Positions 48,554-58,721 of a stretch of DNA of 64,000 nt are shown here, in pieces (position 1 is the first letter of the stretch; every line of letters starts with the position of its first letter). The notes beneath the pieces are model-generated. The model was not told the DNA's origin and searched no databases. It was given only the letters and a program-made list of their open reading frames with translations. Made by a program: the position numbers and the translations under genes. The stretch lies in NCBI GenBank assembly GCA_051047955.1, contig JBPGPT010000001.1, forward strand, positions 372,001 through 436,000, in the 5' to 3' direction. The DNA is from Cystobasidiomycetes sp. EMM_F5. Its lineage: Eukaryota.

Positions 48554-50985
48554 ATGCCTTCTGCCATTCATAACCACACAAACGGTCAGGTCCACATGAA
48601 CGGCAAGGCACCCACTATGTCAGTGCCGCCACTGTCACTCGGCTAATTTCAGGGCTGATACTGGACTGTCAATACCTGCGCAGGGAACCATTCAAGACGC
48701 ACAAGAAGATCAGCGACCTGAAATCTAAGGTCGCGACCAAGTCTGGCGCTATCACCATCGATGGCCAGACACTGACGATTGGCGACGTCGTTGCAGTCGC
48801 TCGCCATGGCGCTCGTGCGAGCATCAGCCCTTCGGTACATGCACTCATCGACGAAAGCGTTGCATTCAAGGAGAGCAAGAAGCACACGTCCATCTATGGC
48901 GTCACAACCGGATTCGGTGGCTCCGCAAATACGCGAACAGCAGATACCGTCGCTTTGCAGCAGTCACTTCTTGAGCATCAACTATGCGGCTTTTTGCCCA
49001 CTGATGCTTCGTACGAGAATATGTAAGTCTCTTCAAGTCTCTTCGAAATTTCTGCGTAATCGTGCCCTAATATATAATCATTCGCAGGCTGCAACACGCC
49101 ATGCCAATCCCGATTGTTCGCGGAGCTATGGCCGTCCGCGTCAACTCCTGCGTTCGCGGGCATTCTGGTGTCCGTCTACACGTCCTCCAAGCTATCATTG
49201 ATTTCTTGAATCTCGGTCTCGTGCCCTGCGTCCCTCTCCGTGGCACTATCAGCGCTAGCGGCGATCTTTCACCAGTGAGTACCATTTGAATAACGCTGGT
49301 TGCACATATTGAGTCCGGATTTCCAGCTCTCTTACATTGCAAGCTCAGTCTGCGGTCACCCTGACGTAAAAGTCTTTGACACCCTCGCCAGCCCACCCAC
49401 CGTCCTCTCTGCACCGGAAGTCATTGCAAAATATGGTCTTCCTACTATTGCGCTGACTGCCAAGGAAGGTCTCGGTCTCATCAACGGTACTGCCGTATCT
49501 TGCGCAGCCGGTACCTTGGCTTTGTATGATGCCGAATGTCTGGCTGTCATGTCTCAAACGGCCACCGCTATGACTGTCGAAGCTTGTAAGTACGAAAGAT
49601 TGACCAGGGCATACCCGTCTGACATAATCTTACGCAGTGACTGGACAATCTGGCGCTTTCGATACCTTCATTCACGACGAGGCCCGCCCTCACCCTGGGT
49701 CCATCGAATGCGCTCAGCACATGCGAAGTCTAGTAAGCATGTGCACACAGTTGCTGGTGATGAGTTTGCTGACGCGGGTGTACAGCTCGAAGGCTCGCAA
49801 CTTGCAATCCACGAGGAGGAAGAGCTAGAATTGCACGAAGACGTCGGCATCCTCCGCCAGGATCGCTACGCATTGCGAACTTCCCCTCAGTGGATCGGAC
49901 CTCAACTAGAGCAACTCGCTTTGGCCCGCCAGCAAATTTCCATTGAGCTCAACTCCACCACTGATAATCCCTTGTTCGACATTAAGCGGAATAAGACCCA
50001 TCACACAGGTGCCTTTCAAGCGATGGCTGTCACTTCTGCTATGGATTCCACGCGCATCGCTTTGCAGAACCTCGGCAAACTCGCTTTTGCCCAAGTCACA
50101 GAGCTAGTCAAGTGAGTCATCGTTGATGCAAAGCATTAGTAGGAGCTAACCCTGGGTCGCAGCTGCCAACTCAACCGTGGCCTTCCCTCCAATCTTGCTG
50201 GTAGCGAACCGTCTACAAACTATCATTGCAAGGGTCTCGACATTCACTGCGCAGCTTACTGCTCGGAGCTTGGATTCCTTGCCAACCCAGTCTCTTCCCA
50301 TGTTCAGTCTGCCGAGATGCACAACCAGAGTGTCAACTCTCTCGCCTTCATCTCAGCCCGCAAAACAATCGACGCCAACGAGACCCTCAGCCTTCTTCTA
50401 TCGAGTCAGCTCTACTGCATAATGCAGGCAATTGACTTGCGCATCATGTACAACGACTTCCTCTCGGAAGTACGAAGCTTGCTGGAAGCAACACTTGCCA
50501 AGCACTTTGGTGATTCATTGTCGAAAAGCGCTCTGGTCAATCTGACAAAGGCATGCTATATCACTCTCATCAAGCGGTTGGAGGAGACGTCATCGTCGGA
50601 ATCGTCTGCTCGCTTCGTAGATGCAGCTTCAATGCTCGTTGGCGTAATTGTCGAAGTCCTTTCCACTTCTGATAATCCTTCCGCACTGAAGGCCGTCACC
50701 TCGTGGAGGACGTCGTTTGCAAGTTCAGCGTCTCAACTGTACGTGTCGATGCTGGACGACTGCAACAACGCCGAAAAGCAGGTCACAGCCGCAAAGTCAA
50801 AACTTGGACGCACCTCCTCAGTCTATGAGCTCATCCGAGGAAGTGATGTCAACGTCGCATTCCGCCGTGGCGATGTCGCCCAAGGCAAGTCTGGAAAGAG
50901 TATCGGAAGCTCTGTGAGCTCTATCGTCGAAGCTATGCGGGATGGAAGGTTGGTCGCGGCCGCCGGCAAGGCTTTCATGGCGTGA
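48554..50985 (+). CDS. PAL: Phenylalanine/tyrosine ammonia-lyase (MIO enzyme)
   Basis: SIYGVTTGFGGSA, LLEHQLCG, MIO motif GTISASGDLSP, AKEGLGLINGT, RQDRYALRTSPQW, STTDNP, AEMHNQSVNSLA; several introns. Confidence 0.95.
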
Positions 50986-51107: not shown

Positions 51108-51206
51108 TGACTCGGCCAGAGAGCGGGTCGCTTTGTCGCATACCAGCTTAAAATTACCACTCTCGCGGCAGCAGGCTCTGAGATTCTCAGTAACTTCACA
51201 GAGTCA
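51108..51206. promoter_or_regulatory. Two TGACTC (Gcn4/CPC-1-type) elements upstream of CPA2
   Basis: TGACTC at 51108-51113 and its reverse complement GAGTCA at 51201-51206; short motif, but in the expected place for an arginine biosynthesis gene. Confidence 0.4.
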
Positions 51207-51229
51207 CCTTACGCAGGCGTACTCATCGG

Positions 51230-51380
51230 ATGTGAGTGTCAATCCGCTCGCTTGGTCGTCCAATTAAACTCGAAGTCTGACCTGGTCTTAATGTCCCAAC
51301 AATGCAGGCTATATCAGCACGTCCAATTCACCCGGGAAGACTACTTATCTGACCATCACTTCAAGAGTCGTGCTGCGTGA
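51230..51380 (+). promoter_or_regulatory. Arginine attenuator peptide (AAP)-like uORF, 24 aa, start codon split by an intron (51232-51307)
   Basis: AT|G join gives MLYQHVQFTREDYLSDHHFKSRAA*; F8, T9 and D12-YLSDH17 match N. crassa AAP MNGRPSVFTSQDYLSDHLWRALNA; ends 85 nt before the CPA2 ATG. Confidence 0.88.
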
Positions 51381-51465
51381 TACGTGCTCGCTTGGTAGCC
51401 CTGTTTATCTAAAATTCGCATAAAAACCTCGAAAAGACCAGCGCAAACGACTGACACGCGCAAAC

Positions 51466-54400
51466 ATGGCGACTCTCGCAGGCAAAGCTCTGCCATGGTC
51501 ATCTAAGGCATACTTGGGACGCTCGTCGCTGACAGCGCGACCCCTCTCGACCTTGCGACAGTCTGGCCGAGTCGCTGAAGCAAAATTTATTGCGGTCAAC
51601 AAGACTGCAAGTTGCCTACATTCGCAGAGCCGTCGAACTCTGTCATACACCTCACACAGGTACGAGGCCCGAGTGGAGTCTGGTACGCTCACCTCACCCT
51701 CCGACCTGGCCCGAAAATTGTCGGAGCAGGTCCTTCCTCGCATACCCCGACCAGACGTCAAGAAGGTCCTGGTAGTTGGATCAGGCGGTCTTTCTATTGG
51801 ACAGGCAGGGGAATTTGATTATTCTGGTACGTCGTTGTGTGATCTCTCCCATAAACATCACACCTCGTCACGCTATGCGACTATCCTTATCGACTCGATC
51901 AATGTCCGATCGCTCGTCGGACGTCTCTTTGCGCTTGATTGCAGAAGATGAATAAAAATATGGAACACATCGCTGCGTTCTTTCTGAGAGCACTTACGCT
52001 CCTGATGGTCTAAAGTGCCGAAAGGTACAAGGATAATTTGCGCCTGAAAATACAATCAATCACCAGCTCGATTATTTACCCCTAGCATCAGCCCTCGAAT
52101 AAGACAACTGACACGCTCATGCTGTTGTAGGTTCCCAAGCTATCAAAGCGTTGCGAGAGTCCAATGTAGAGACTATTCTCATCAATCCGAATGTGAGTGT
52201 TTGCCCGTTCCGCTTTCAGAGACAGATGTCTGAATGTACACTTCCTTACAGATTGCAACGATTCAAACGTCCCATCACCTTGCCTCTGAGGTATACTTCC
52301 TGCCAATCACTGCCGACTATGTGGCATATGTCATTGAACGCGAGCGCCCCGATGGCATTCTCCTAACTTTCGGCGGCCAGTCGGCGCTGAATGTGGGTGT
52401 CCAGCTCGACAAGATGGGTATTCTGGACCGTCTTGGCGTCCAAGTGCTCGGTACACCCATCCGTACTCTCGAGGTGTCCGAAGATCGAGATCTTTTCGTC
52501 AAAGCTTTGAATGAGATCGAAATCCCGGCGGCTCAGTCAACAGCCGTCTCATCCGTCAACGACGCTCTCTCTGCCGCCGAGACTATCGGATACCCAGTCA
52601 TTCTTCGGTCTGCCTATTCTCTCGGTGGACTTGGATCAGGTTTTGCAAACAATCCAGACGAGATGCGCGATCTGGCTGCAAAGTCGCTCTCGCTTTCCCC
52701 GCAGGTCCTTATCGAGAAGTCCATGAAGGGCTGGAAGGAGCTTGAATACGAAGTTGTTCGAGATGCAGCCGACAGTAGGTACAGCAATTGGCAGTGTTGA
52801 GGACAAAAGCTCACATCTGAATGTACAGACGTAATCATTTGTTGCAACATGGAGAACTTTGATCCACTTGGTACACATACAGGCGACTCGATCGTCGTAG
52901 CTCCTTCGCAGACACTTACAGACGATGAATATCACATGCTCCGATCGGCAGCTATCAAAATTGTGCGACATGTCGGTGTAGTTGGCGAATGCAACGTCCA
53001 ATACGCATTGAATCCACACAATCGCGAATACATGGTCATCGAGATGAATGCACGCCTGTCCCGTTCGTCTGCGCTGGCATCCAAGGCGACAGGTTACCCA
53101 CTGGCGTATACCGCCGCCAAGATTGCTCTAGGCTATACTCTACCCGAATTGCCAAACGCCGTCACCAAGACGACGACCGCTTGCTTCGAACCATCGCTAG
53201 ACTACATCGTCACCAAGATTCCGAAATGGGATCTGGCCAAATTCCAGTATGTCAACCGAGAAGTCGGGTCTTCGATGAAGTCTGTCGGAGAAGTCATGGC
53301 TATCGGCCGCAACTTTGAAGAGTCACTGCAGAAGGCTGTTCGACAGGTGGACCCCAAGTTTGCTGGATTCGACGCGTACGTTCAGCCCGAAGACTTGGAT
53401 CACGCACTGTCCGTGCCTACCGATACCCGTCTGTTCGCTGTTGCGTATGCTATGCTCGTCAAGGACTATGATGTTGAAAGGATTTATGAACTGACAAAGA
53501 TTGACCGCTGGTTCCTGTACAAGCTCGACAACATTGTCGTTGCGAACCGCGCATTGAAAGCTGCTGGATCTCTAGCCAACGTCGATGAGCACATGATGCG
53601 CAAAAGCAAGCGATTGGGTTTCTCCGATAAACAAATAGCAGTCTTGGTCAACTCGACGGAGGTCGAAGTCCGAGCGGCACGAAAAGCGATGGGCATTACC
53701 CCCTTTGTCAAGCGTATCGACACGCTTGCTGCGGAGTATCCTGCCGATACAAACTACCTCTTCACGACTTACAACGCTTCAGAGCACGATGTCGCCTTCA
53801 ACGAGCACGGTACGATGGTACTTGGCAGCGGTGTATACCGTATTGGATCGTCGGTCGAATTTGATTGGTGCGCTGTGACATGCGCCCGCAAGATTCGTGC
53901 AGCCGGAAGGAAAGCCATCATGATCAACTACAATCCTGAAACCGTTTCTACCGATTTTGACGAGGCGGACAGGCTGTATTTCGAGGAGCTGGGCTGGGAG
54001 CGTGTCATGGATATCTATGAGCTGGAAGGTTCCGAAGGAGTAGTAGTAAGCGTCGGTGGTCAATTACCGCAAAACATTGCACTTCGTCTGCAAGATAGCG
54101 GTGTCAATGTCCTTGGTACAGATCCCAAGATGATTGACTCTGCCGAAGACCGCCATAAATTCTCGTCTATTCTCGACAAGCACCAGATTGATCAGCCTGA
54201 ATGGGTCGAAGCGACGACGCTGGAGGCAGCTACAGAGTTTGCTGAACGTGTTGGCTACCCTGTTCTCATTCGACCGTCATACGTTCTCTCTGGAGCGGCC
54301 ATGAACGTTGTATGGGACGAGTCAACCCTCACTCACTCGCTCAGTGCTGCTGCCGAAGTGTCGTCAGAATACCCTGCAGTCATCACCAAGTTTATCGATA

Positions 54401-55499
54401 ATGCAGAGGAGATTGACGTTGATGCTGTAGCGCACAAGGGTAAATTACTCATTCATGCCGTTTCTGAACACGTGGAAAACGCTGGTGTACACTCTGGCGA
54501 TGCGACATTGGTCCTTCCTCCATTCTCGCTCCAGTCGGACGACATGGCACGGCTCAAGGAGATTGCTGAAAAGGTCGCTGCTGCGTTCAACATTTCCGGT
54601 CCGTTCAACATGCAAATTATCCGTAAAGCGTCCAGTACACCAGGCGAGCCTACCGTACTCAAGGTTATCGAATGCAATCTCCGGGCATCCCGTTCCTTCC
54701 CCTTTGTCTCCAAGATTCTTGGCACCAATTTCATCGATGTAGCTACTGCTGCCATTCTCGACAAGGATGTCCCTGAACCTGTTGATCTGATGAAGGAGGA
54801 ACGCGACTATGTAGCCATCAAAGTGCCACAATTTAGTTGGACGCGTCTTGCGGGTGCTGACCCGTTCCTCGGCGTCGAGATGGCATCGACCGGCGAGGTT
54901 GCTGCGTTCGGTTCAGACATCTACGAAGCGTACTGGGCATCCCTCCTCTCTACGACTGGTTTCAAGATTCCTAAAGCGGGTTCAGGCATGCTCATTGGCG
55001 GCGACGTTACGAAACCTGAATTTGCCAAAGTCGTCAAGACGCTCTCCAATCTCGGGTTTAAGCTGTTCTGCTCCAATTCGCAGGTGGAAGCGTACATTGC
55101 AGACATGGGCCCGTATGTTCGAAAAGCCAAAAAGATCTTCTTCCCTGCAAAGGACAAGCGAAAGCTGCGCAAAGTGTTTGAGGAGAATGACATACAGTGC
55201 GTTATCAATCTCGCAAAGTTGCGTGGACGGGATGTCTTGGACGAAGACTATGTCGCTCGTCGAAACGCAGTAGACTTTGTGAGTGGTTTGCCGAAGCACA
55301 GGCATAAAGACGGGATGACTGACGTACAAGTTGGCGCTCGTAGGGCCTTCCACTCATCAACAATGCTCGATGCGCTGCGCTGTTTGTCGAAGCGCTCTCT
55401 CGCAAGATGCCTCTTGGCGCGCTTGAAGGGTACAAGCAGGGCAAAGCTGTCCCGTCTGAAGTCAAGGCGTGGTCGACCTGGGTCCATGGACATCCGTGA
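51466..55499 (+). CDS. CPA2: Arginine-specific carbamoyl-phosphate synthetase large subunit (with mitochondrial presequence)
   Basis: [87 protein letters not shown]; no GATase, DHOase or ATCase domains. Confidence 0.96.
51941..52050 (+). ncRNA. Intronic box C/D snoRNA with two rRNA guides (18S Am436 snR87/U16-type; 5.8S Am43)
   Basis: Box C-like AAGATGA 51945-51951, D' CTGA 51984-51987, C' TGATGG 52003-52008, D CTGA 52044-52047; flanking stem TTGATTG/CAATCAA; guides TCGCTGCGTTCTT and TAATTTGCGC. Confidence 0.88.
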
Positions 55500-56042: not shown

Positions 56043-58721
56043 ATGCTCAGCTTTTCCACGTCCGACATGGTCATCCTCGCCCTCGTCGGGTTTGGGGCAT
56101 TCTACTTTATATTCAAGGACTCGCTATTCGCAGGCAGCTCAGCCGGACCAGCAAAGCTCGGAAATGGTACAGCAAACGGCAAGATTGGACCCGCTGGACC
56201 GCTCGGCGCTGGAGCTGGCCAGGGATCCGGTGTGCCGTCGGGTGGGAGGGATCTAGCCAAGAGCATGAAGCTGGCGGTGAGTGGTCGGTGTGGGCAAGGC
56301 AAGACGATGCGGACATGTTTCTGACGAGCAGTTGTGGCCACTGCGCTTTTTCGATTCTGTGCCTCGATTCAGAATAAACGCATCTGCTGCATCTATGGAA
56401 GTCAGACTGGTACGGCAGAAGACTATGCACTCCGCATCGCCAAAGAGTGCAAGTCTCGCTTCGGATTGAGCAGTCTGGTCGTTGATCCTGAAGAGTGGGT
56501 GTCAACACCAGCACCATCTCGCAAATCGTTCTGATACTATTTCTGCCTCAGTTACGACTTTGATACTCTGGACGAAATACCAGAAGACAACGTGGTCGTA
56601 TTCGTGGTAGGTACAGCGCGTTGTAGAGTCGAGGTGAGTTAATTCGGCTGACACTTCTCCGACGACTAGGTCGCAACGTATGGCGAAGGTCAGTCTGCTC
56701 ATTTTTGTATTGTATTCTTCTCATTCAACACATCGTTAACCTGCTGGTGCGATCTGCAGGGGAGCCGACAGACAATGCCGTCGAATTGATCAACTTTCTA
56801 AAAGAACCAAACTTTGCTTCTGGCGCAGACAGACTTGACAATTTGCACTATGTCATCTTTTCGCTCGGCAACAGGACGTATGAGCATTTCTGCGCTGTAG
56901 GCCGACAGATTGACGAACGTCTGGCTGCGTTGGGTGCAAAGCGGATCGGAACGCGCGGAGAGGGTGACGACGACAAGAGCATGGAGGAAGACTATCTCGA
57001 GTGGAAGGATCCCATGTTTGAAGCTCTCCAGCGAGACATGAACTTTGAGGAAGGTGGTACGGGCGACGTTTCCGATTTCCAGATTACGGAAATGGAAAAG
57101 GAGTCTCAAGATATGAGCAAAGTCTTTTTGGGAGAGTTGTCGCAACGTGCACTCACAAATTCGCGTGGCGTCTTTGATGCAAAGAATCCATACCCTGCTC
57201 CTCTCATCTCGGCCAAAGAGCTCTTTTTGGCTGGCGACCGAAACTGCGTCTTTGCGGAATTTGGAATAAAGGACTCGGGTATACGCTATCAGACGGGCGA
57301 CCATGTTGGTGTATGGCCGATGAACCCAGATGCAGAAGTAGAACGACTATTAAAGGTCCTCGGCATGCAAGCCAAGCATGATACCGTTATCGATGTCACT
57401 TCTCTCGATCCCGCACTCGCCAAAGTCCCTTTTCCTACGCCTACGACTATCGATGCTATCTTCCGCCACTACCTCGACATTAACGCTGTTGCATCACGTC
57501 AAGCATGCGGTGCACTCGCTCGATGGGCGCCAGAAGGCTCCCCTGCGCGTGCACAATTGGAAAAGTGGGGATCCGATAAGCAAATCTATCACGCCGAAGT
57601 TGCAGAGAGGTGTCTCAAACTGAGCGAAGTCCTCATGGCTGCTAATGGCGAAGATTACAAGGCCGATCCATTCACATCACAAGCTCAAGTCAAGCCATGG
57701 TCTATTCCACTTGACCGCATCATCTCACTCGTCCCGCGCCTTCAACCTCGATACTACTCCATTTCTTCCTCGCCCAAGTTGTACCCTGACTCTATTCACG
57801 TCACGGCGGTTGTGTTGAAGTACCAGCCCGGTGAAGATGGAAATAAGCACGTCGCCGAAACAGCCAAATACGTCTATGGTACAGCAACAAACTACCTATT
57901 GAACCTCAAGATGGTCCAGTTCAACGAAAAGGCACGCTTGGAAGCGCAAGGGCAGACGACGCACAATGACGATAAGCGAGATCATGGTGCGCCTGGCTAC
58001 AGGCTTGAAGGACCGCGTGGCAAGTTCAAGAAGGATGCAGGATACTGTATTCCCGTTCATGTTCGTCGCTCCACTTTCCGCCTGCCAACGAGTCCAAAGA
58101 TTCCGGTAGTCATGATTGGTCCGGGTACAGGAGTCGCACCTTTCCGCGGTTTCGTACAAGAACGCGTAGCGTTGGCGCGTAAAGCAAAGGAGAAGGATGG
58201 ACCTGACGCACTAAAGGACTGGGGCGACATTATACTCTTTTACGGCTGCAGATCACCAGAGACAGACTACCTGTATGAGCAGGAATGGCAGGATTACGCA
58301 AAAGAGCTGGACGGAAAGTTCAAGATCTTTGTTGCGTTTAGTCGTGTCAAGGGACAGCCGAAAGTTTACGTTCAGCAACTCATCTCAAAGGAACGGGAAC
58401 TCGTCAAGGATGCTATTGTTGGCAAGAAGGGTTACGCTTATATCTGTGGAGATGCAAAACATATGGCAAAGGACGTCGAGGAACTTCTCAAAGAGCTGCT
58501 CGCTGAAGCCAAAGGCGGCACAAAGAAAAAGGAGGGCGAGGCAGAGTATTCTTTGCTCAAGTCGCGCAACCGAGTGAGTGTGATGTGCGAGGCTCACTTG
58601 GCATATCGACTGATGTGTCAATGATCCGTTTTCTCCCCTAGCTTCTCTTGGATGTTTGGAGGTATGGCGTTTTGCTTGTGTTCCCATGTAAAGATACTGA
58701 CTGTCTGCTGTTTCCAGTTAG
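56043..58721 (+). CDS. NCP1: NADPH-cytochrome P450 reductase
   Basis: N-terminal anchor; YGSQTGTAE, ATYGEGEPTDNA, PRYYSISSS, MIGPGTGVAPFRGF, YICGDAKHMA, C-terminal DVWS*. Confidence 0.96.

What the first reader, a model, noticed from the sequence alone, without database searches (positions are those of the whole stretch)
51230..51468. Arginine attenuator peptide uORF on the CPS-A LARGE subunit gene (CPA2)
Seen: a 24-codon uORF, MLYQHVQFTREDYLSDHHFKSRAA, ends 85 nt upstream of the CPA2 ATG. Its start is in a weaker context (tcggATGc) than the main start (aacATGg). Established: the fungal AAP (N. crassa arg-2 MNGRPSVFTSQDYLSDHLWRALNA; S. cerevisiae CPA1) stalls ribosomes at high arginine and is described on the SMALL subunit mRNA. 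Length, F8-T9 and D12-H17 here are in exact register with the N. crassa peptide. Inference: arginine-sensing translational attenuation has been moved or copied to the partner subunit gene in this lineage. I cannot exclude an earlier report.
Basis: partly seen in the sequence, partly recalled or inferred. Interest (0 to 1): 0.92.

Follow-up and report, generated by a model that had tools for sequence, protein, structure and literature searches.

The report
Arginine attenuator uORF before CPS large-subunit gene
A short upstream reading frame of the well-known fungal arginine-sensing "attenuator peptide" family sits in front of the large-subunit gene of arginine-specific carbamoyl-phosphate synthetase, whereas every other example I could retrieve precedes the small-subunit gene.

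Summary
ATG 51230-32 is split by a consensus 76-nt intron (AT|GTGAGT...CTGAC...CAG, 51232-51307). After splicing it opens a 24-codon uORF ending at TGA 51378-80, 85 nt before the main ATG at 51466. Unspliced, the same core lies in a 29-codon ORF (51291-51380).

The peptide passes Pfam Leader_CPA1 (19.1 bits, cut-off 18.5). It is the only such segment among 2665 six-frame segments of the window. A back-translated AAP pattern hits the window once, 596 Gb of prokaryotic DNA never, and metagenome contigs 20 times.

All 20 metagenome hits precede a small-subunit gene (CPSase_sm_chain + GATase). Here the downstream gene is a five-exon large subunit.

Length, F8/T9/D12-H17 register, weak uORF AUG context and spacing match the canonical design. 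Q11E, L/I18H and W19F depart from it.

No RNA data, own genome or related basidiomycete leaders were available. Expression, arginine response and the state of this genome's CPA1 are therefore untested. Seven literature searches linked no AAP to CPA2/arg-3, but the key 2007 survey was not readable.

Verdict: a real AAP-family uORF in a new gene context. Function is inferred.

The parts
51108..51113 (+). TGACTC core, a candidate general-amino-acid-control (Gcn4/CPC1-type) site upstream of the uORF
   Evidence: 27 TGACTC/GAGTCA cores in 64 kb, two of them in the 480-nt intergenic region. That this is a Gcn4-type core is recalled, not tested.
51201..51206 (-). Second TGACTC core (GAGTCA on the + strand), 24 nt before the uORF ATG
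   Evidence: Function inferred only.
51230..51231 (+). uORF exon 1: the first two bases (AT) of the uORF start codon, with weak context (C at -3)
   Evidence: All 20 canonical AAP uORFs also have a pyrimidine at -3.
51232..51307 (+). Predicted 76-nt intron in the 5' leader: GTGAGT donor, CTGAC branch motif at 51277-81 (27 nt before the acceptor), CAG acceptor
   Evidence: This strict signal occurs at 6 donor positions on both strands of the window against 1.46 in shuffles. On the + strand it occurs at 131, 49275, 51232 and 55279; 55279 is CPA2 intron 4. GTGAGT and CTGAC are each used by 2 of the 4 CPA2 introns. Splicing is not shown by RNA.
51308..51380 (+). uORF exon 2: the G that completes the ATG, 23 codons (LYQHVQFTREDYLSDHHFKSRAA) and the TGA stop
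51291..51380 (+). Alternative unspliced 29-codon ORF (P0001) holding the same AAP core. It would be used if the intron is retained or transcription starts inside it.
   Evidence: PF08252 19.1 bits.
51381..51465 (+). 85-nt spacer between the uORF stop and the main AUG, with no further ATG
   Evidence: Canonical spacers are 33-106 nt.
51466..55499 (+). Arginine-specific carbamoyl-phosphate synthetase large subunit gene (CPA2/arg-3 type). Exons: 51466-51826, 52131-52192, 52252-52774, 52829-55278, 55344-55499. The roughly 100-residue basic N-terminal leader looks like a mitochondrial presequence.
   Evidence: CPSase_L_D1/D2/D3, MGS; named hits 'arginine-specific large chain', 'CPA2'; 86.6% identity to P0002 over exon 4.

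Best explanation
This is a genuine member of the fungal arginine attenuator peptide (AAP) family, encoded by a uORF in the 5' leader of the large-subunit gene (CPA2/arg-3 type) of arginine-specific carbamoyl-phosphate synthetase in a basidiomycete-like fungus.

Proposed mechanism, inferred by homology:
1. Transcription starts upstream of 51230.
2. A 76-nt leader intron is removed, which completes the uORF start codon and yields a 24-codon AAP.
3. The uORF AUG is in weak context, so at low arginine many scanning ribosomes bypass it and start at the strong main AUG 85 nt downstream.
4. At high arginine, ribosomes that did translate the uORF stall at its stop codon with the nascent peptide in the exit tunnel. 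D12 is the key contact.
5. The stalled ribosomes block scanning ribosomes, lower synthesis of the large subunit, and possibly trigger nonsense-mediated decay.

Shown here: the sequence, the family match, the gene context and the consensus splice signals.

Inferred only: the transcript structure, the splicing, and the arginine-dependent stalling.
For: Family match:
- Pfam Leader_CPA1 is above its gathering score.
- The match is unique in the window and absent from shuffles and from 596 Gb of prokaryotic DNA.
- T9, D12, Y13, S15, D16 and H17 are invariant across the window and 16 distinct CPA1 AAPs, and F8 and K20 are shared.

Leader architecture:
- The spliced uORF has 24 codons, as do 16 of 20 canonical uORFs.
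- F is at position 8, as in 17 of 20 canonical uORFs.
- The uORF AUG has a pyrimidine at -3, as in 20 of 20. The main AUG has a purine at -3, as in 17 of 20.
- The 85-nt spacer lies within the canonical 33-106 nt.
- The spliced leader has no other ATG.

Intron:
- The signal GTGAGT...CTGAC...CAG has a per-position chance of about 1e-5 in shuffles. It begins exactly where it is needed to put the ATG in frame.
- It matches the signals of the CPA2 introns.
- A real intron here would require a transcription start upstream of the uORF.

Downstream gene:
- It is a complete large subunit. The N-terminal length before the GSGG motif (about 103 residues) lies within the 74-121 seen in 32 full-length relatives.

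Mechanism in the known family:
- The AAP stalls the ribosome at the uORF stop in response to arginine (PMC7969011, passages).
- D12N abolishes stalling, and D12 contacts uL4 (PMC7038982, passages).
Against: - No RNA evidence that the uORF is in the mRNA or that the intron is spliced.
- No orthologous CPA2 leader could be examined, so conservation is unknown.
- Three positions depart from what I saw elsewhere. Q11 is E, although Q occurs in 20 of 20 metagenome AAPs. L/I18 is H. W19 is F, although W occurs in 20 of 20 metagenome AAPs and in the AAP-like rows among the 25 database hits. All those comparators look ascomycete, so this may be lineage divergence or may be loss of arginine response.
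- The Pfam score is only 0.6 bits above the cut-off, and its local alignment stops at H17.
- The gap between the upstream gene's stop (50985) and the uORF ATG is only 244 nt. It has to hold that gene's 3' end and this gene's promoter.
- The pattern scan of metagenome contigs found no second AAP before a large subunit (0 of 20). That scan could only see AAPs of near-canonical, uninterrupted form.
Confidence: 0.65

Rival explanations
1. The uORF is translated and represses CPA2, but constitutively or weakly. It has lost the arginine response because of the substitutions at positions 11, 18 and 19.
For: E11, H18 and F19 differ from residues that are invariant or conservative in the 20 metagenome AAPs; the same residues hold in the AAP-like rows. 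My ascomycete-based HMM gives only 15.1 bits.
Against: The residues known to me from papers as decisive (D12; PMC7038982, passages) and the whole T9/D12-H17 core are kept. W to F and Q to E are conservative changes. The comparators are all ascomycete-like, so they do not define what basidiomycete AAPs tolerate.
Confidence: 0.15
2. It is a non-functional relic: a copied or rearranged fragment of a CPA1 leader that landed in front of CPA2 and is not under selection.
For: Only one genome was seen and no conservation data exist. The peptide is divergent.
Against: Everything needed for function is intact. That includes the start codon (created only by a consensus intron), the stop, the 24-codon length, the weak AUG context, the canonical spacer and the absence of extra uATGs. 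A neutral 75-nt frame with a 76-nt intron would be expected to decay.
Confidence: 0.1
3. The uORF is not part of the CPA2 mRNA. Transcription starts downstream of it, or it lies in the 3' region of the upstream aromatic-amino-acid-lyase gene.
For: The upstream gene ends at 50985 on the same strand, only 244 nt before the uORF ATG. No RNA data.
Against: Consensus intron signals sit exactly at the uORF start codon. An AAP match directly before a CPS-A gene is too specific to be unrelated to it. Even a start inside the intron, upstream of 51291, would still include the 29-codon AAP ORF.
Confidence: 0.08
4. It is a chance resemblance of a random short ORF to the AAP motif.
For: The Pfam score is only just above the cut-off.
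Against: The pattern gives 0 of 100 shuffles, 0 matches in 596 Gb of prokaryotic DNA and 20 of 20 true AAPs among metagenome matches. The segment is the top of 2665 in the window. It lies directly upstream of a subunit of the very enzyme that AAPs regulate.
Confidence: 0.01

Closest known systems
Neurospora crassa arg-2 uORF and Saccharomyces cerevisiae CPA1 uORF (arginine attenuator peptide; Pfam PF08252 Leader_CPA1)
   Same: - A 24-codon uORF when spliced.
- Weak uORF AUG, strong main AUG, and a short spacer.
- The target is a subunit of arginine-specific CPS.
   Different: - The downstream gene is the large (synthetase) subunit, not the glutamine-amidotransferase small subunit. All 20 retrieved examples and the papers I read (PMC7969011, PMC7049704, PMC12230235; passages) concern the small subunit.
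- Q11E, L18H and W19F.
- The start codon is split by an intron.
Basidiomycete AAP uORFs on CPA1/arg-2 orthologues (Cryptococcus CND01050; Coprinopsis CopciAB_446268)
   Same: Same phylum-level background and same peptide family. The Cryptococcus uORF shows strong ribosome occupancy and NMD sensitivity (PMC7049704, passage).
   Different: Both are reported on the small-subunit orthologue. Their peptide sequences sit in figures and supplements that I could not read, so I could not compare residues 11, 18 and 19.
Ascomycete AAP uORFs interrupted by an intron between Q11 and D12
   Same: The AAP uORF is completed only by splicing. 7 of 25 database ORF calls read through such an intron (P0137, P0139, P0142-P0146).
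   Different: Here the intron sits after the second base of the start codon, not inside the conserved core.
Other eukaryotic uORF arrest peptides (hCMV gp48 uORF2, AMD1 MAGDIS and S-uORF)
   Same: Works alike in principle: a nascent peptide stalls its own ribosome and blocks scanning to the main ORF (PMC7038982, passages).
   Different: No sequence relationship, and different effectors.

Membership tests
Arginine attenuator peptide (Pfam PF08252 Leader_CPA1) | Profile match at or above the curated gathering score | tested here: met
   19.1 bits against 18.5 for the 29-aa ORF, and 18.9 bits for the 23 residues of exon 2. The margin is small.
Arginine attenuator peptide (Pfam PF08252 Leader_CPA1) | Conserved core T9-x-x-D12-Y13-[LI]14-S15-D16-H17, including the D12 that is essential for stalling | tested here: met
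   T, D, Y, S, D and H are invariant in all 17 rows including the window. The role of D12 comes from PMC7038982 (passages).
Arginine attenuator peptide (Pfam PF08252 Leader_CPA1) | Q11, [LI]18 and W19 as in all the other AAPs retrieved | tested here: not met
   the window has E, H and F. The comparators all look ascomycete. Whether these residues are required is not known to me from any paper I could read (Spevak 2010 is not held).
Arginine attenuator peptide (Pfam PF08252 Leader_CPA1) | A short uORF of about 24-25 codons with a weak-context AUG, a few tens of nucleotides before the main AUG | tested here: met
   24 codons if spliced, C at -3, 85-nt spacer. Canonical values: 16 of 20 have 24 codons, 20 of 20 have a pyrimidine at -3, and spacers are 33-106 nt.
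Arginine attenuator peptide (Pfam PF08252 Leader_CPA1) | Located in the 5' leader of the small-subunit (CPA1/arg-2) mRNA | tested here: not met
   the downstream gene is the large subunit. 20 of 20 other AAPs precede CPSase_sm_chain + GATase.
Arginine attenuator peptide (Pfam PF08252 Leader_CPA1) | Present in the mature mRNA | not testable with these tools
   No RNA holder was listed and no genome is held.
Arginine attenuator peptide (Pfam PF08252 Leader_CPA1) | Arginine-dependent ribosome stalling at the uORF stop codon | not testable with these tools
   Needs toeprinting, a reporter assay or ribosome profiling.
Arginine-specific CPS large subunit (CPA2/arg-3) | CPSase L-chain domain set without fused GATase or ATCase, and closest to proteins named arginine-specific | tested here: met
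   CPSase_L_D1/D2/D3 and MGS domains. Exon 4 is 80.9% identical to the Mixia osmundae protein and 86.6% to P0002. Named hits include 'arginine-specific large chain' and 'CPA2'.

The most novel reading that the evidence does not exclude
In this basidiomycete lineage the arginine sensor has been transplanted from the small-subunit mRNA to the large-subunit mRNA, with CPA1 having lost it. Arginine feedback on CPS-A would then act through the synthetase subunit. That would show that a nascent-peptide ribosome-arrest sensor is a portable cis module that can hop between genes of one enzyme. It would also supply a natural Q11E/L18H/W19F variant whose start codon exists only after splicing.
Probability: 0.3. 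Interest if true: 0.75.

Novelty: new variant of a known kind. Interest (0 to 1): 0.6.

Why it matters
The AAP is the textbook eukaryotic case of a nascent peptide that senses a small molecule inside the ribosome. In every source I could read or retrieve it is tied to the small-subunit gene (CPA1/arg-2).

An intact AAP in front of the partner large-subunit gene would matter in three ways:
- It would show that this sensor can be re-used on another mRNA. That bears on how uORF regulators spread and on which subunit limits CPS-A in different fungi.
- It offers a natural sequence variant (E11, H18, F19) for structure-function work.
- The AUG is created by splicing, so uORF use is linked to leader processing.

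The mechanism itself would be the known one, so this is a variant and not a new principle.

Tried and rejected
**Own genome and this genome's CPA1**
- No genome is held for the window, so its CPA1 could not be checked.
- No CPSase small chain lies among the 51 window ORFs of at least 120 aa that I scanned, out of 94 listed.

**RNA**
- No RNA holder was listed, so read laying was not usable.

**Earlier scan notes**
- Nothing exists for this genome, its relatives or this sequence.
- Only yeast CPA1 AAP notes turned up.

**Protein word search**
- I searched with the AAP region (window 51111-51377, residues 50-89).
- Longer proteins: 2 candidates, none scored. Shorter proteins: none. No fused or annotated relative of this variant was found.

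**Profile search of 1.84 billion representatives with alignment A1**
- 25 hits came back, of 24-166 aa.
- None is fused to a large subunit. One (P0130) runs on into a small subunit. None has E11/H18/F19.
- The profile is dominated by ascomycete AAPs, so relatives of this variant would score too low to appear.

**Other scans**
- 0 of 120 CPA2-type protein models contain an AAP motif.
- The prokaryote genome scan gave 0 matches and serves as a negative control.
The contigs behind the close CPA2 relatives P0002-P0005 therefore could not be fetched.

**Ideas considered and rejected**
- The uORF as a coding first exon of CPA2. It ends in TGA, I saw no GTRAGT-like donor between the core and the stop, and the N-terminal length from ATG 51466 is normal.
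- A second intron in the 85-nt spacer. No donor/acceptor pair is seen there.
- Chance resemblance (see rival explanations).

**Papers not held**
- Hood 2007 (pmid 16979358), Dever 2020 (PMC7686025), Spevak 2010 (PMC3003393), Wei 2012 (PMC3434499), Wang 1997 (PMC232343) and Zhang 2015 (PMC4574236).
- Supplements of PMC7049704 and PMC12230235, which show basidiomycete AAP sequences, were not opened.
- One search for W19/Trp-19 data returned nothing relevant.
Full report
**What is in the sequence**

ATG 51230-32 sits in the context TCGG-ATG. Read straight on, it is followed at once by TGA. The G of that ATG is also the first base of a perfect donor, GTGAGT (51232-37). A CTGAC branch motif lies at 51277-81, and a CAG acceptor ends at 51307.

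Removing these 76 nt joins AT to G-CTA-TAT... Exactly 85 nt follow before the main ATG at 51466 (AAAC-ATG-G), and they hold no other ATG.

If the intron is not removed, a 29-codon ORF (51291-51380, P0001) still encodes the same core. The one qualification is that the 24-codon form depends on a predicted splice.

**Is it more than chance?**

- Pfam Leader_CPA1 (PF08252) scores 19.1 bits against a gathering score of 18.5 for the 29-aa ORF. It scores 18.9 bits for the 23 residues of exon 2.
- I wrote a degenerate DNA pattern for [FY]-T-x-[QE]-D-Y-[LIMF]-S-D-H-x-[WFCL]. It matches the window once and none of 100 shuffles.
- The same pattern matches none of 596 Gb of prokaryotic genomes.
- It matches 20 metagenome or metatranscriptome contigs, and all 20 are true AAP uORFs.
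- An HMM built from the 16 distinct peptides among those 20 ranks the window's segment first of 2665 six-frame segments. It scores 15.1 bits, E 0.0014, against 8.1 bits for the next.

**The downstream gene**

Exon 1 (51466-51826) carries about 100 basic, acid-poor residues and then the start of the CPSase pre-ATP-grasp domain. Later exons carry CPSase_L_D2, D3, a second D1/D2 and MGS.

I aligned the closest full-length relative, P0002, an unnamed JGI protein. This gives five exons: 51466-51826, 52131-52192, 52252-52774, 52829-55278 and 55344-55499. The four introns are:

| Intron | Length | Donor | Acceptor |
|---|---|---|---|
| 1 | 304 nt | GTACGT | TAG |
| 2 | 59 nt | GTGAGT | CAG |
| 3 | 54 nt | GTAGGT | CAG |
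| 4 | 65 nt | GTGAGT | TAG |

Exon 4 is 86.6% identical to P0002, 84.1% to P0003 and 80.9% to the Mixia osmundae protein. Other hits are named 'arginine-specific large chain' or 'CPA2' in Basidiomycota.

There is no GATase or small-chain domain in the gene, nor in any of the 51 window ORFs scanned. The upstream neighbour on the same strand is an aromatic amino-acid lyase ending at 50985.

The N-terminal length before the GSGG motif lies within the 74-121 seen in 32 full-length relatives. None of the 120 CPA2-type protein models contains an AAP motif. ATG 51466 is therefore the likely start, and the uORF is not a coding exon.

**How it compares with canonical AAP leaders**

In the 20 retrieved loci the ORF after the uORF has CPSase_sm_chain plus GATase in 20 of 20. 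None is a large subunit. One search gives the canonical design:

- 16 of 20 uORFs have 24 codons, 3 have 25, and 1 has 20.
- The aromatic residue is at position 8 in 17 of 20.
- The uORF AUG has a pyrimidine at -3 in 20 of 20.
- The main AUG has a purine at -3 in 17 of 20.
- The spacer is 33-106 nt.

The window's spliced uORF fits every one of these: 24 codons, F8, C at -3, A at -3 with G at +4 for the main AUG, and an 85-nt spacer.

In the alignment T9, D12, Y13, S15, D16 and H17 are invariant across all 17 rows including the window. F8 and K20 are shared. The window departs at Q11 (E), L/I18 (H) and W19 (F).

It aligns with the window peptide without gaps.

**The intron**

The strict signal is GTGAGT, then CTGAC, then YAG within intron-like distances. 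It occurs at 6 donor positions on both strands of the window, against 1.46 per shuffled window.

On the + strand the positions are 131, 49275 (inside the lyase gene), 51232 and 55279 (CPA2 intron 4). Such a signal starts exactly at the third base of an ATG and restores the canonical 24-codon register. That is hard to explain unless the intron is real.

A real intron here would in turn require transcription to start upstream of the uORF. Introns in AAP uORFs are not new in themselves. 7 of the 25 database ORF calls read through an intron between Q11 and D12. The position here is different.

**Mechanism**

By homology, the nascent AAP stalls the ribosome at the uORF stop codon when arginine is high. 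That lowers translation of the main ORF (PMC7969011, passages). D12N abolishes stalling, and D12 contacts uL4 at the tunnel constriction (PMC7038982, passages). In Cryptococcus the CPA1 uORF is heavily occupied and the mRNA is NMD-sensitive (PMC7049704, passage).

I infer the same scheme here, but with the large subunit as the regulated product. The shown steps are the sequence, the family match, the context and the splice signals. The inferred steps are transcript structure, splicing, stalling and arginine dependence.

**What I could not do**

- No genome is held, so the state of this organism's CPA1 is unknown.
- No RNA run was listed.
- My single metagenome scan went to the AAP pattern. It can only see near-canonical, uninterrupted AAPs, and it returned ascomycete-looking sequences only. 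'0 of 20 before a large subunit' therefore says nothing about basidiomycetes.
- The contigs behind the closest CPA2 relatives (P0002-P0005) could not be fetched.
- Protein-database searches for relatives or fused forms of this variant found none. Their sensitivity for a 24-residue divergent peptide is low.

**Literature**

I ran ten full-text searches. Seven bore on the gene link, and none linked an AAP to CPA2, arg-3 or a large subunit. One search was badly framed and returned only taxonomy papers.

The papers I read in passages place the AAP on the small-subunit gene: PMC7969011, PMC7049704 for Cryptococcus and PMC12230235 for Coprinopsis.

The comparative survey by Hood, Spevak and Sachs (2007) and the Sachs-lab reviews are not held. 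A prior mention cannot be excluded.

**Verdict**

This is a real AAP-family uORF with canonical leader architecture in a non-canonical gene context. I put the proposed function at about 0.65. I rate it a new variant of a known kind, of moderate to good interest. Transcript evidence, the state of CPA1 and conservation in relatives would decide how far it goes.

Noticed in passing
window 51230-51235: If the leader intron is retained, the first ATG is followed directly by TGA, a minimal AUG-stop uORF. The AAP core is then read from ATG 51291 as a 29-codon ORF. Splicing would thus switch between two uORF configurations.
   Followed up: partly
window 51108-51113 and 51201-51206: Two TGACTC cores lie in the 480-nt intergenic region, against 27 in the whole 64-kb window. 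They are possible general-amino-acid-control sites. That motif identity is recalled, not tested.
   Followed up: partly
window 48574-50985 (+): An aromatic amino-acid lyase (PAL/HAL-type, PF00221) gene in several exons lies directly upstream of CPA2 on the same strand. It leaves only 244 nt before the uORF ATG.
   Followed up: no
proteins P0137, P0139, P0142-P0146: Seven database ORF calls show ascomycete-type AAP uORFs with an in-frame read-through of an intron between Q11 and D12. Splicing-dependent AAPs therefore seem common.
   Followed up: no
protein P0130: A 149-aa ORF call runs from an AAP straight into a small-subunit N-terminus with no stop between them. It is either a read-through artefact or a natural fusion.
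   Followed up: no
protein P0140: A 166-aa protein with repeated PTCQDYVSDL-like units matched the AAP profile in three stretches. It looks like an unrelated repeat protein, that is, a false positive.
   Followed up: no
window 51827-52130: The first CPA2 intron is 304 nt, far longer than the other three (54-65 nt).
   Followed up: no
window 56627-58621 (+): An ORF with Flavodoxin_1, FAD_binding_1 and NAD_binding_1 domains (cytochrome P450 reductase or sulfite reductase flavoprotein type) lies downstream of CPA2.
   Followed up: no
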